64,000 bases of DNA. Source: Escherichia coli (GTDB lineage: Bacteria > Pseudomonadota > Gammaproteobacteria > Enterobacterales > Enterobacteriaceae). Below the pieces are notes generated by a model. It did no database searches, was not told the DNA's origin, and worked only from the letters and a program-made list of their open reading frames with translations. The position numbers were made by a program, and so were the translations under genes. This document shows, in pieces, positions 46,840 through 49,928 of this stretch (positions are counted from its first letter, which is position 1; the number at the start of each line of letters is the position of its first letter). Location: assembly GCF_003018255.1 (NCBI RefSeq), contig NZ_CP027440.1; one strand, written 5' to 3'.

Positions 46840-47072
46840 TGAGATCCCGTTATTTTTATCAATTTTTGTTGCTATCCGATCGCAAAAAAGCCACGTCATA
46901 TGATCAGATAATTCTGATAATGATAGACGCTATTTAACACTTCACACGGTTTGTATATGGAAAAGCATTTTGCTTTTTGTATTCAATTTAGACAGAATTT
47001 TATTAATCATTTCAGGGTAATGGGGTGATGAGATGTTGCGTAACAGGGCCAGAAGGCTAGACTACAAAATAA

Positions 47073-48077
<1,005 letters not shown>

Positions 48078-48351
48078 CAAAAGCAATTTTCCCGGCTGTC
48101 TGTATACAAAAACGCCGCAAAGTTTGAGCGAAGTCAATAAACTCTCTACCCATTCAGGGCAATATCTCTCTTGCAGGTGAATGCAACGTCAAGCGATGGG
48201 CGTTGCGCTCCATATTGTCTTACTTCCTTTTTTGAATTACTGCATAGCACAATTGATTCGTACGACGCCGACTTTGATGAGTCGGCTTTTTTTTGCCTGT
48301 TATTTGTCAGCGTCTACCCTTTAAGAGTCCACCCAATGACCGGAGGGAAAT

Positions 48352-48525
48352 ATGACGACACTTATTTATTTGCAAATTCCTGTCCCTGAACCGATTCCTG
48401 GCGATCCTGTTCCAGTGCCCGATCCGATCCCTCGCCCGCAACCCATGCCTGACCCACCACCCGACGAAGAACCGATTAAATTGTCGCATCGTGAGCGTAG
48501 ATCTGCGAGGATACGCGCCTGCTAA
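48352..48525 (+). CDS. Candidate 57-aa proline-rich small protein (MTTLIYLQIPVPEPIPGDPVPVPDPIPRPQPMPDPPPDEEPIKLSHRERRSARIRAC)
   Basis: ATG at 48352 preceded by RBS ggaggg (48342-48347) at 5-nt spacing; not in the ORF track because under 60 aa; lies in the zntB-dbpA intergenic region. Confidence 0.4.
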   Translation: MTTLIYLQIPVPEPIPGDPVPVPDPIPRPQPMPDPPPDEEPIKLSHRERRSARIRAC

Positions 48526-48554
48526 CTTTGCGTCGATGACCACGAGAATAGATT

Positions 48555-49928
48555 GTGACCGCTTTTTCTACCCTGAATGTTTTGCCTCCCGCCCAACTCA
48601 CGAACCTTGATGAGTTGGGTTATTTAACCATGACGCCGGTGCAGGCCGCCGCGCTTCCGGCGATCCTTGCCGGAAAAGATGTTCGCGTGCAGGCGAAAAC
48701 CGGCAGCGGCAAAACGGCGGCTTTTGGCCTCGGCTTGTTACAGCAAATTGATGCGTCGCTATTTCAAACCCAGGCTTTAGTGCTGTGTCCTACGCGTGAA
48801 CTGGCGGATCAGGTGGCAGGTGAATTGCGTCGGCTGGCGCGTTTTCTGCCAAATACCAAAATTTTGACGTTGTGCGGTGGTCAACCGTTCGGTATGCAGC
48901 GTGATTCGTTGCAACATGCGCCGCATATTATCGTGGCAACGCCGGGCCGTTTGTTGGATCATCTGCAAAAAGGCACGGTATCACTGGATGCGTTGAATAC
49001 GCTGGTGATGGATGAGGCCGACCGCATGCTGGATATGGGATTTAGCGATGCCATTGATGATGTCATCCGTTTTGCGCCAGCATCTCGACAGACGCTTCTG
49101 TTTTCGGCAACCTGGCCGGAAGCCATCGCCGCAATCAGCGGACGAGTGCAACGCGATCCTTTAGCGATTGAAATTGACTCAACAGATGCTCTGCCACCTA
49201 TTGAACAACAATTTTATGAGACATCCAGCAAAGGCAAAATTCCGTTGTTGCAACGGTTATTAAGTTTGCATCAGCCATCCTCTTGCGTGGTGTTTTGCAA
49301 TACCAAAAAAGATTGCCAGTCTGTCTGCGACGCGCTGAATGAAGTAGGGCAAAGTGCATTGTCGTTACACGGCGATCTGGAGCAACGCGATCGCGATCAG
49401 ACCCTGGTACGTTTTGCTAACGGTAGCGCCCGTGTACTGGTCGCGACTGATGTTGCTGCGCGTGGTCTGGATATAAAATCGCTTGAGCTGGTGGTGAACT
49501 TTGAGCTGGCGTGGGACCCTGAAGTTCATGTACATCGCATCGGTCGTACAGCTCGTGCAGGAAATAGCGGTCTGGCGATCAGTTTCTGTGCCCCGGAAGA
49601 AGCACAGCGGGCCAATATCATTTCTGACATGTTGCAGATAAAACTTAACTGGCAAACGCCGCCAGTTAATAGTTCCATTGTGCCGCTGGAAGCAGAAATG
49701 GCAACGTTATGTATCGATGGCGGGAAAAAAGCCAAAATGCGCCCGGGTGATGTATTAGGTGCGCTGACAGGAGATATCGGGCTTGATGGCGCAGATATTG
49801 GCAAAATCGCCGTGCATCCGGCGCATGTCTATGTCGCGGTGCGTCAGGCTGTTGCTCATAAAGCATGGAAACAGTTACAGGGCGGGAAGATTAAAGGAAA
49901 AACGTGCCGGGTGCGGTTATTAAAATAA
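48555..49928 (+). CDS. dbpA: ATP-dependent RNA helicase DbpA (DEAD-box, 23S rRNA hairpin 92 specific)
   Basis: 457-aa ORF with Walker A TGSGKTAAF, DEAD box (VMDEADRML), SAT motif. Confidence 0.92.
   Translation: MTAFSTLNVLPPAQLTNLDELGYLTMTPVQAAALPAILAGKDVRVQAKTGSGKTAAFGLGLLQQIDASLFQTQALVLCPTRELADQVAGELRRLARFLPNTKILTLCGGQPFGMQRDSLQHAPHIIVATPGRLLDHLQKGTVSLDALNTLVMDEADRMLDMGFSDAIDDVIRFAPASRQTLLFSATWPEAIAAISGRVQRDPLAIEIDSTDALPPIEQQFYETSSKGKIPLLQRLLSLHQPSSCVVFCNTKKDCQSVCDALNEVGQSALSLHGDLEQRDRDQTLVRFANGSARVLVATDVAARGLDIKSLELVVNFELAWDPEVHVHRIGRTARAGNSGLAISFCAPEEAQRANIISDMLQIKLNWQTPPVNSSIVPLEAEMATLCIDGGKKAKMRPGDVLGALTGDIGLDGADIGKIAVHPAHVYVAVRQAVAHKAWKQLQGGKIKGKTCRVRLLK

What the first reader, a model, noticed from the sequence alone, without database searches (positions are those of the whole stretch)
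48352..48525. Proline-rich 57-codon ORF with a strong RBS in the zntB-dbpA intergenic region
MTTLIYLQIPVPEPIPGDPVPVPDPIPRPQPMPDPPPDEEPIKLSHRERRSARIRAC has a hydrophobic N-terminus followed by a P-x-P-rich segment and a basic tail. It is preceded by ggaggg at ideal spacing. The roughly 480-bp intergenic region is otherwise unexplained (a putative sRNA, C0343, has been reported here in K-12, from memory). The proline run would require EF-P for efficient translation, so the ORF could be a small membrane-anchored protein or a regulatory leader.
Basis: partly seen in the sequence, partly recalled or inferred. Interest (0 to 1): 0.4.

Follow-up and report, generated by a model that had tools for sequence, protein, structure and literature searches.

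The report
Known small gene ynaL upstream of dbpA
The 57-codon proline-rich ORF is real, but it is the already annotated and experimentally detected E. coli small-protein gene ynaL (formerly mislabelled as the sRNA C0343); what it does is still unknown.

Summary
The ORF is at 48352-48525 (+) exactly as described, with GGAGGG 4 nt before the ATG. It is not new. It is ynaL ("proline-rich small protein YnaL", WP_001296046.1, Pfam PF23677), 100% identical to K-12 YnaL. YnaL was detected by chromosomal SPA tagging (VanOrsdel 2018) and is ribosome-covered in EHEC; C0343 is this mRNA.

The intergenic region is not "otherwise unexplained": the sRNA FnrS lies at 48173-48295.

In 76 Enterobacteriaceae genomes ynaL lies about 30 nt upstream of dbpA wherever the locus holds enough sequence. 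Its conservation has two parts:
- **Pro-rich core (D18-K43):** conserved as protein (pN/pS 0.06-0.28, synonymous sites saturated).
- **3' end:** conserved as nucleotides (pS about 0.003). It stays identical in the 14 species where a stop codon cuts off the basic tail.

The N-terminus is hypervariable and too short for a membrane helix, and AlphaFold gives no fold.

My best inference, about 40% likely, is that ynaL is the first cistron of a ynaL-dbpA unit. Its translation would melt a conserved arm (48483-48490) that can pair with the dbpA GTG start. Covariation neither supports nor refutes this. A trans-acting role for the peptide is equally open.

The parts
48352..48525 (+). ynaL coding sequence (57 codons plus TAA), the ORF of the finding
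   Evidence: ORF list. RefSeq annotation ynaL / WP_001296046.1. Pfam PF23677 full-length match, E = 2.2e-40. Identical to K-12 YnaL in VanOrsdel 2018.
48342..48347 (+). Shine-Dalgarno GGAGGG of ynaL, 4 nt before the ATG
   Evidence: Read from the sequence. GGAGG is conserved in the cross-species alignment.
48352..48402 (+). Hypervariable N-terminal part of YnaL (residues 1-17), variable in both length and sequence
   Evidence: Protein alignment A1. N-terminal segments are 10-19 aa with mean hydropathy -0.4 to 1.6. No nucleotide conservation.
48403..48480 (+). Pro-rich core D18-K43 (DPVPVPDPIPRPQPMPDPPPDEEPIK), conserved at protein level. It includes the PPP codons at 48454-48462.
   Evidence: First and second codon positions are conserved while third positions are free: mean major-base frequency 0.93 / 0.96 / 0.64. 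pS 0.52-0.63 and pN/pS 0.06-0.28. PPP is kept in 72 of 76 species.
48472..48490 (+). Nucleotide-level conserved block 1, CCGATTAAA(T/A)TGTCGCATC. Its 3' part GTCGCATC (48483-48490) is the candidate arm that pairs with the dbpA start region.
   Evidence: pS = 0.002 for the L-S-H codons. Many columns are invariant in 65 species. RNAalifold pairs it with the dbpA start. Pair-compatible in at least 95% of species, but with no two-sided covariation.
48491..48498 (+). Neutral spacer of fixed length between the two blocks. This is where 14 species carry a premature stop codon.
   Evidence: pN/pS = 0.79 for the three codons 48490-48498 that span it. Stops TAG, TAA or TGA at the same codon in Enterobacter, Lelliottia and Kosakonia-like genomes among others.
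48499..48519 (+). Nucleotide-level conserved block 2, AGATCTG(C/A)GAGGATACGCGCC, which encodes RSARIRA in E. coli. Function unexplained. It contains a possible small hairpin AUCU-G[C/A]GA-GGAU at 48501-48512.
   Evidence: pS = 0.005. Identical even downstream of premature stops. The hairpin has mean pair probability about 0.5. The C-to-A change in the Kosakonia group keeps a GNRA loop. No covariation.
48541..48559 (+). dbpA translation initiation region: weak SD-like GAGA and the GTG start (48555-48557). GA (48544-48545) and TGTGAC (48554-48559) are the candidate partners of block 1.
   Evidence: Alignment A2. RNAalifold. Pair counts.
48555..49928 (+). dbpA (ATP-dependent RNA helicase DbpA), the gene immediately downstream in every locus that holds enough sequence
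   Evidence: ORF list. RefSeq annotation. The start motif TGTGACCGCTTTTTC follows ynaL in all loci with enough sequence.
48173..48295 (+). FnrS sRNA with its intrinsic terminator (stem 48267-48286 plus T-run). It is a neighbour and not part of the ORF, but it occupies much of the 'unexplained' intergenic region.
   Evidence: Rfam RF01796, 134.8 bits. Terminator scan. Conserved upstream of ynaL in 68 of 69 aligned loci.
48293..48320 (+). Conserved motif TTGCCT-N16-TACCCT directly after the FnrS terminator. It is a candidate weak sigma-70 promoter for ynaL-dbpA (inference only).
   Evidence: Conserved columns in the 69-locus alignment. The consensus scan did not call it because the -10 matches only 3 of 6.

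Best explanation
**Identity (about 98% certain).** The ORF is ynaL, a known small-protein gene restricted to Enterobacteriaceae. It was formerly annotated as the sRNA C0343. It encodes an unstructured, proline-rich 57-aa peptide.

**Mechanism (inferred, about 40% likely).** ynaL is the first cistron of a conserved ynaL-dbpA unit and acts at least partly in cis.
- dbpA has a poor initiation region: a GTG start and only a GAGA as SD.
- That region can pair with the invariant RNA arm GUCGCAUC inside the last conserved codons of ynaL (L44-S45-H46-R47).
- Ribosomes that translate ynaL through this arm would open the helix and allow dbpA initiation, i.e. translational coupling.
- The conserved Pro-rich peptide, which is slow to polymerise and contains DPPPD, would set how often and how fast ribosomes reach that point.

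**What is shown:** identity, translation, synteny, and the split between protein-level and nucleotide-level selection.

**What is inferred:** the helix, the coupling, and any role of proline-dependent pausing.
For: **Identity and translation**
- RefSeq annotation and an identical protein accession in K-12-like strains.
- Pfam YnaL match at E = 2e-40.
- SPA-tag detection and a tetracycline ribosome-profiling signal reported in PMC6001520.
- Ribosome coverage value of 2.49 in EHEC, and C0343 equated with a 57-aa protein, in PMC5331693.

**Linkage to dbpA**
- All 78 genome loci found with the core pattern that hold enough sequence have the dbpA start about 30 nt after the canonical ynaL stop, with no indels in the conserved 3' part.

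**Two kinds of selection**
- Core: pS 0.52-0.63 and pN/pS 0.06-0.28.
- L-S-H codons and tail: pS 0.002-0.005.
- The tail stays nucleotide-identical in 14 species where a stop precedes it.
- Every one of those stops lies just 3' of the candidate arm, so the ORF always covers the arm.

**Candidate helix**
- RNAalifold's only consensus helix is 48483-48488 with 48554-59, which includes the dbpA GTG.
- The extended 8-bp version is pair-compatible in at least 95% of species.
- The only changes in the arm (A to G and C to U in the Kosakonia group) keep G.U pairs.
Against: - **No covariation.** No pair of the conserved long-range helix changes on both sides, and the helix is only 6-8 bp.
- **No unusual stability.** The E. 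coli leader does not fold better than shuffled sequence (z = +1.6 for 305 nt, -1.0 for 115 nt).
- **A competing hairpin.** Mean predicted probability of the long-range helix is only about 0.2, and a local hairpin competes with it.
- **Block 2 unexplained.** The model does not account for block 2 (48499-48519).
- **Not general to dbpA.** Orthologues at 51-60% identity have no Pro-rich upstream ORF and no such element.
- **The protein accumulates.** A tagged YnaL accumulates to detectable levels (PMC6001520), which fits a trans-acting protein just as well.
- **PPP not universal.** PPP is replaced by PSP in 4 species.
Confidence: 0.4

Rival explanations
1. YnaL is a trans-acting small protein. 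The conserved, extended polyproline-II core binds a partner, for example DbpA, the ribosome or another protein. Co-transcription with dbpA would then reflect related function only. The nucleotide-conserved 3' end would be a separate dbpA regulatory element that merely overlaps the ORF.
For: - About 26 residues are under strong protein-level purifying selection across genera.
- The tagged protein accumulates in exponential and stationary phase (PMC6001520).
- AlphaFold gives high local confidence (pLDDT about 90) for an extended Pro-rich segment without a fold, as is typical of linear binding motifs.
- The tail is dispensable as peptide, which fits two independent overlapping functions.
Against: - No partner, phenotype or domain is known.
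- There is no PDB relative. The only family hits besides YnaL are compositional: TonB region at 20.8 bits against a cut-off of 315, and TonB_N at E = 0.75.
- It does not explain why the ORF always extends just past block 1.
Confidence: 0.35
2. ynaL is a nascent-peptide or EF-P-dependent stalling leader (SecM, TnaC or MgtP type). The 29-residue conserved segment would fill the exit tunnel when the P site reaches about codon 46-47. The ribosome would pause there or at DPPPD. The pause would report peptidyl-transferase or EF-P competence and so adjust synthesis of DbpA, a helicase that acts on the 23S hairpin 92 region. This is a sharper version of the best explanation.
For: - The architecture matches: variable N-terminus, conserved C-proximal peptide, and an ORF end that overlaps RNA able to pair with the downstream start.
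- A DPPPD motif of the kind known to need EF-P is kept in 72 of 76 species.
- There is precedent that polyproline in leader ORFs affects downstream expression through EF-P (PMC5021804, found; title and abstract only).
Against: - No stalling data were found. ynaL is absent from the held EF-P/EfpL profiling supplements.
- Four species have PSP instead of PPP.
- Distant dbpA genes lack any such leader.
- The physiological signal is pure speculation.
Confidence: 0.2
3. YnaL is a small membrane-anchored protein, with a hydrophobic N-terminus as anchor.
For: The E. coli N-terminus MTTLIYLQIPVP is moderately hydrophobic, with mean hydropathy 1.1.
Against: - There are only about 12 residues before the Pro-rich region, too few to span a bilayer.
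- The segment is hypervariable, and in Klebsiella and Raoultella it is polar (MRYQPLTSIP).
- AlphaFold predicts only a 3-residue helix.
Confidence: 0.03
4. The region is a non-coding sRNA (C0343) and the ORF is fortuitous.
For: It was listed as the sRNA C0343 in older annotations (PMC5331693, PMC3318445).
Against: - The core shows a coding substitution pattern.
- Indels are in frame.
- Ribosome coverage and immunoblot detection are reported.
- C0343 was removed from Rfam according to PMC5331693, and there is no Rfam hit here.
Confidence: 0.01

Closest known systems
YnaL (E. coli K-12 b4743-class small protein; Pfam PF23677 'Protein YnaL-like'; RefSeq WP_001296046.1)
   Same: - Identical 57-aa sequence.
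- Same position between fnrS and dbpA.
- Full-length Pfam match.
   Different: Nothing. This is the same gene in another E. coli strain.
C0343, a former candidate sRNA of E. coli K-12
   Same: Same locus. The literature states that C0343 contains this 57-aa ORF (PMC5331693).
   Different: C0343 was interpreted as non-coding. That interpretation has been abandoned.
Proline-codon leader ORFs mgtP and mgtL of Salmonella, and polyproline leaders studied with EF-P (PMC5021804)
   Same: A short upstream ORF with consecutive Pro codons, whose translation speed could influence the downstream gene.
   Different: - Those leaders control transcription attenuation through alternative stem-loops that have been shown experimentally. 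Here no terminator or attenuator is evident.
- The conserved peptide here is much longer.
- Nothing has been tested.
- The comparison with mgtP and mgtL rests on my own knowledge.
SecM-secA and other arrest-peptide leaders (own knowledge)
   Same: - Variable N-terminus and conserved C-proximal peptide.
- The ORF end lies next to RNA that can sequester the downstream initiation region.
   Different: - No demonstrated arrest.
- No covariation support for the helix.
- YnaL has no export signal.
- The trigger is unknown.
TonB proline-rich spacer (Pfam PF16031)
   Same: An X-Pro repeat composition expected to form an extended polyproline-II rod.
   Different: The resemblance is compositional only: E = 0.75 in Pfam, and 20.8 bits against a 315-bit cut-off in NCBIfam. 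There is no TonB domain and no membrane anchor.

Membership tests
YnaL family (Pfam PF23677) | Full-length match to the family HMM | tested here: met
   Residues 1-57 match model positions 1-57 of 57, E = 2.2e-40, 136.8 bits. All 120 listed homologues carry PF23677.
YnaL family (Pfam PF23677) | Genomic position between fnrS and dbpA, as for K-12 ynaL | tested here: met
   FnrS is at 48173-48290 and dbpA at 48555. The RefSeq gene order is zntB-ynaL-dbpA. The same order holds in the cross-species loci.
Experimentally validated E. coli small proteins (VanOrsdel 2018) | Sequence identical to the tagged and detected protein | tested here: met
   The 57-aa sequence printed for ynaL in PMC6001520 is identical to the window ORF.
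Small membrane proteins | A hydrophobic segment long enough to span a bilayer (about 18 or more residues), conserved among orthologues | tested here: not met
   N-terminal segment is 10-19 aa, hypervariable, with mean hydropathy -0.4 to 1.6. AlphaFold predicts no helix longer than 3 residues.
Regulatory leader / arrest peptides (SecM, TnaC, MgtL/MgtP type) | Short ORF immediately upstream of, and always linked to, the regulated gene | tested here: met
   The dbpA start is about 30 nt after the ynaL stop in every locus with enough sequence.
Regulatory leader / arrest peptides (SecM, TnaC, MgtL/MgtP type) | RNA structure that links leader translation to the downstream initiation region or to a terminator, supported by covariation | tested here: inconclusive
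   A 6-8 bp helix between 48483-48490 and the dbpA start is pair-compatible in at least 95% of species. It shows no two-sided changes and no unusual folding energy.
Regulatory leader / arrest peptides (SecM, TnaC, MgtL/MgtP type) | Demonstrated ribosome pausing or arrest, and an effect on the downstream gene | not testable with these tools
   This needs toeprinting, ribosome profiling or reporter fusions. No such data for ynaL were found in the held literature.
EF-P-dependent polyproline proteins | At least three consecutive prolines (PPP) in a strong context | tested here: met
   DPPPD is at residues 34-38 (48451-48465) and PPP is kept in 72 of 76 species. Actual EF-P dependence was not tested.
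TonB (NCBIfam NF008084 / Pfam PF16031) | Score above the curated family cut-off | tested here: not met
   20.8 bits against a cut-off of 315. TonB_N at E = 0.75.
Known RNA families (Rfam 15) for the conserved 3' element | Covariance-model match | tested here: not met
   Only FnrS and a chance DUF2815 hit (E = 0.85) within 47900-48800 at E up to 1.

The most novel reading that the evidence does not exclude
The ynaL 3' end and the dbpA leader form an undescribed, Enterobacteriaceae-specific control module with three elements:
- a tunnel-length conserved polyproline peptide;
- an invariant RNA arm able to mask the dbpA GTG start;
- a second invariant 21-nt block (AGAUCUGNGAGGAUACGCGCC) of unknown ligand.

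Together these would couple DbpA synthesis to how well ribosomes polymerise proline. DbpA is the helicase that remodels the 23S hairpin 92 and peptidyl-transferase region. The module would therefore be a feedback sensor of peptidyl-transferase or EF-P competence.
Probability: 0.15. Interest if true: 0.6.

Novelty: already known. Interest (0 to 1): 0.2.

Why it matters
As a discovery it does not matter: the gene is named, has a Pfam family and has been detected experimentally.

What still matters is that YnaL has no known function. The comparative analysis here turns "unknown small protein next to dbpA" into testable statements:
- The functional peptide is D18-K43, not the hydrophobic head or the basic tail.
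- The last 50 nt of the ORF are an RNA-level or DNA-level element that belongs to dbpA control.
- The ORF is never allowed to end before the arm that can pair with the dbpA start.

If coupling or proline-dependent pausing were confirmed, it would be the first regulatory input known for dbpA.

Tried and rejected
1. **23S rRNA hairpin-92 mimicry by the conserved element (DbpA autoregulation).** Local alignment of 48466-48525 against E. coli 23S and 16S, both strands, scored no better than shuffles. The best 23S score was 17 against a shuffle mean of 18.7. A 16S h23-like match was reached by 16 of 200 shuffles.
2. **CsrA site (GGA in a small hairpin).** The supplements of Potts 2017 list dbpA with no CLIP-seq peak and no significant change.
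3. **FnrS pairing with the ynaL-dbpA leader.** Duplex energies were not better than shuffles.
4. **Known RNA family.** None.
5. **Sigma-70 promoter inside ynaL for dbpA.** The scan found none. By-eye candidates had wrong spacing, and no match to other sigma-factor consensus sequences was seen by eye (not a rigorous test).
6. **Stable conserved secondary structure.** No two-sided change in the conserved helices and no excess folding energy.
7. **Dual coding in another frame or on the antisense strand.** The open frames are what this codon composition predicts, and no conserved start was seen by eye in the alignment.
8. **Pro-rich upstream ORFs as a general feature of dbpA.** Absent in three distant orthologue contexts.
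9. **EF-P profiling data for ynaL.** Not present in the held supplements.
10. **The RNAcode paper (Washietl 2011).** It could not be read and is cited only through PMC5331693.

Full report
**Observation.** GGAGGG lies at 48342-48347, 4 nt before the ATG. zntB ends at 48077 and dbpA begins with GTG at 48555, so the intergenic region is 477 bp. One statement in it is wrong: the region is not otherwise unexplained. Rfam FnrS (RF01796) matches 48173-48290 at 134.8 bits, and its intrinsic terminator is at 48267-48294.

**Identity.** A megablast of 48060-48570 against 5,426 complete E. coli genomes found the region in 5,392 of them. In a spread sample, all 29 full-length hits annotate "ynaL: proline-rich small protein YnaL" between zntB and dbpA. 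The protein accession WP_001296046.1 is the same in the best hit and in a K-12-like strain. Pfam has a family for it, PF23677 "Protein YnaL-like", matched end to end at E = 2.2e-40.

**Published evidence.**
- VanOrsdel et al. 2018 (PMC6001520) list ynaL between fnrS and dbpA with the identical 57-aa sequence.
- They detected it by chromosomal SPA tagging and immunoblot.
- They note that it was an unidentified positive in a tetracycline ribosome-profiling screen.
- They suggest it may form an operon with dbpA.
- Neuhaus et al. 2017 (PMC5331693) state that the former sRNA C0343 contains this ORF. They report a ribosome coverage value of 2.49 in EHEC and say Washietl et al. 2011 had shown that it encodes a 57-aa protein.

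No paper in the held library assigns YnaL a function.

**Distribution.** A protein search returned 162 homologues, all carrying PF23677, from these genera:
- Escherichia, Citrobacter, Salmonella and Enterobacter;
- Klebsiella, Raoultella and Kosakonia;
- Leclercia, Lelliottia and relatives.

A degenerate DNA pattern for the core found 78 loci among species-representative genomes, again all Enterobacteriaceae. In every locus with enough sequence:
- The dbpA start motif follows the canonical ynaL stop by about 30 nt.
- FnrS lies upstream in 68 of 69 aligned loci. The exception is Intestinirhabdus.

dbpA orthologues at 51-60% identity from other lineages have neither a Pro-rich upstream ORF nor the conserved element.

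**Anatomy from comparison.** The gene falls into three parts.

1. *Residues 1-17.* They are hypervariable in sequence and length, 10-19 aa, with mean hydropathy from -0.4 to 1.6 and polar in Klebsiella and Raoultella. This is too short and too variable for a membrane anchor. AlphaFold on the 30-sequence alignment gives no secondary structure and pTM 0.22. It shows high local confidence only for an extended Pro-rich stretch. There is no PDB relative.

2. *Residues 18-43, DPVPVPDPIPRPQPMPDPPPDEEPIK.* They evolve as a protein under purifying selection.
   - Third codon positions are free (mean major-base frequency 0.64 against 0.93 and 0.96 at positions 1 and 2).
   - pS is 0.52-0.63, which is saturated.
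   - pN/pS is 0.06 for the 17 codons used in the search pattern, an estimate biased downward by ascertainment.
   - pN/pS is 0.28 for the 10 unbiased codons upstream of the pattern.
   - Indels in E. coli and Salmonella variants are in-frame repeat gains or losses.
   - PPP is kept in 72 of 76 species.

3. *From I42 onward.* Here the constraint switches to the nucleotide level.
   - ATTAAA(T/A)TGTCGCATC (block 1, 48472-48490) and AGATCTG(C/A)GAGGATACGCGCC (block 2, 48499-48519) have pS of 0.002-0.005.
   - They are separated by a fixed-length spacer that evolves neutrally (pN/pS 0.79).
   - In 14 of 76 species, from several independent lineages, a TAG, TAA or TGA sits in that spacer, right after ...KLSH(R).
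   - Block 2 nevertheless remains identical downstream of those stops.

The "basic tail" is therefore a by-product of a conserved RNA or DNA element and is dispensable as peptide.

**What the nucleotide element might be.** RNAalifold finds one consensus helix: GUCGCA (48483-48488) with UGUGAC (48554-48559), which contains the dbpA GTG.
- Extended by U-A and C-G pairs to GA at 48544-48545, it is pair-compatible in at least 95% of species.
- The only substitutions in the arm (A to G and C to U in the Kosakonia group) keep G.U pairs.
- No pair of this conserved helix changes on both sides, so covariation neither supports nor refutes it.
- Folding energies are unremarkable.
- Per-species partition functions give the helix only about 0.2 probability, against a competing local hairpin at the dbpA start.
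- Block 2 can form a 4-bp hairpin with a GNRA loop. The one variable base is the N of GNRA. This too is unproven.

I tested several other explanations and rejected them:
- 23S or 16S mimicry or complementarity;
- a CsrA site;
- FnrS pairing;
- known Rfam families;
- an internal sigma-70 promoter;
- alternative reading frames.

Block 2 remains unexplained.

**Mechanism.** I commit to the following, at about 40%. ynaL and dbpA form one translational unit. dbpA has a weak initiation region (GTG start, GAGA as SD) that can be masked by the block 1 arm. Ribosomes translating ynaL across L44-R47 would unmask it. This accounts for four observations:
- the strict linkage and fixed spacing;
- the nucleotide-level conservation of codons 42-47;
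- the fact that all natural premature stops lie just 3' of the arm and never before it;
- the dispensability of the tail as peptide.

The model does not by itself explain why the Pro-rich peptide is conserved. Two readings are open. One is a trans-acting linear motif (about 35%). The other is a nascent-chain or EF-P-dependent pause that tunes arrival at the arm (about 20%; it overlaps the main model). The conserved peptide is about 29 residues, roughly the length the exit tunnel holds when the P site reaches codon 46-47, but this is only suggestive. A membrane-anchor role (about 3%) and a non-coding role (about 1%) are effectively excluded.

**Transcription.** Directly after the FnrS terminator there is a conserved TTGCCT-N16-TACCCT at 48293-48320. 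It could be a weak promoter for ynaL-dbpA. Read-through from fnrS or zntB is an alternative. Neither was testable here.

**Verdict.** The finding is real and correctly described, but it is already known: a named gene with a Pfam family and published detection. The part that appears unreported in the held literature is the split into a protein-constrained core and a nucleotide-constrained 3' module tied to the dbpA start. It is modest in interest and directly testable.

Noticed in passing
window 48173-48295 (+): FnrS sRNA (Rfam RF01796, 134.8 bits) with its terminator occupies the middle of the zntB-dbpA intergenic region.
   Followed up: yes
window 48499-48519 (+): The 21-nt block AGATCTG(C/A)GAGGATACGCGCC is invariant across Enterobacteriaceae genera at all codon positions, even where it lies downstream of a premature ynaL stop. 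None of the hypotheses tested here explains it.
   Followed up: partly
window 48293-48320 (+): A conserved TTGCCT-N16-TACCCT motif immediately follows the FnrS terminator T-run. It may be a weak promoter for ynaL-dbpA. The spacing is lost in two Citrobacter-like loci (L019, L080) through a 9-nt deletion.
   Followed up: partly
window 47033-47080 (+): A 15-codon ORF ([15 protein letters not shown]) ends 13 nt before the zntB start. RefSeq annotates it as 'protein YnaN' under the gene label ydaN. It may be a leader or small protein for zntB.
   Followed up: partly
L082 3319-4016 (E. coli STEC388, NZ_CP041425.1): An IS1A element is inserted between fnrS and ynaL. PGAP then calls a 61-aa YnaL with a different N-terminus. 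The locus therefore tolerates separation from the upstream region.
   Followed up: no
proteins P0001, P0112, P0053; locus L022 (E. coli E69): In-frame gains and losses of 10-15 residues (one 15-aa loss in P0112, the others 10-11 aa) occur in the PVPDPIP repeat part of YnaL, in E. coli and Salmonella. Rare E. coli variants also carry frameshifts or deletions that fuse ynaL into the dbpA start region (P0007, P0041, P0106, P0110).
   Followed up: partly
L072 (Intestinirhabdus alba), upstream of ynaL: This is the only aligned locus where the sequence upstream of ynaL does not align with FnrS, while ynaL, both conserved blocks and dbpA are retained.
   Followed up: no
window 48499-48514 vs E. coli 16S rRNA 700-719 (L081): AGATCTGCGAGGATAC resembles 16S helix 23, AGAUCUGGAGGAAUAC. 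The match is not significant: 16 of 200 shuffles score as high.
   Followed up: yes
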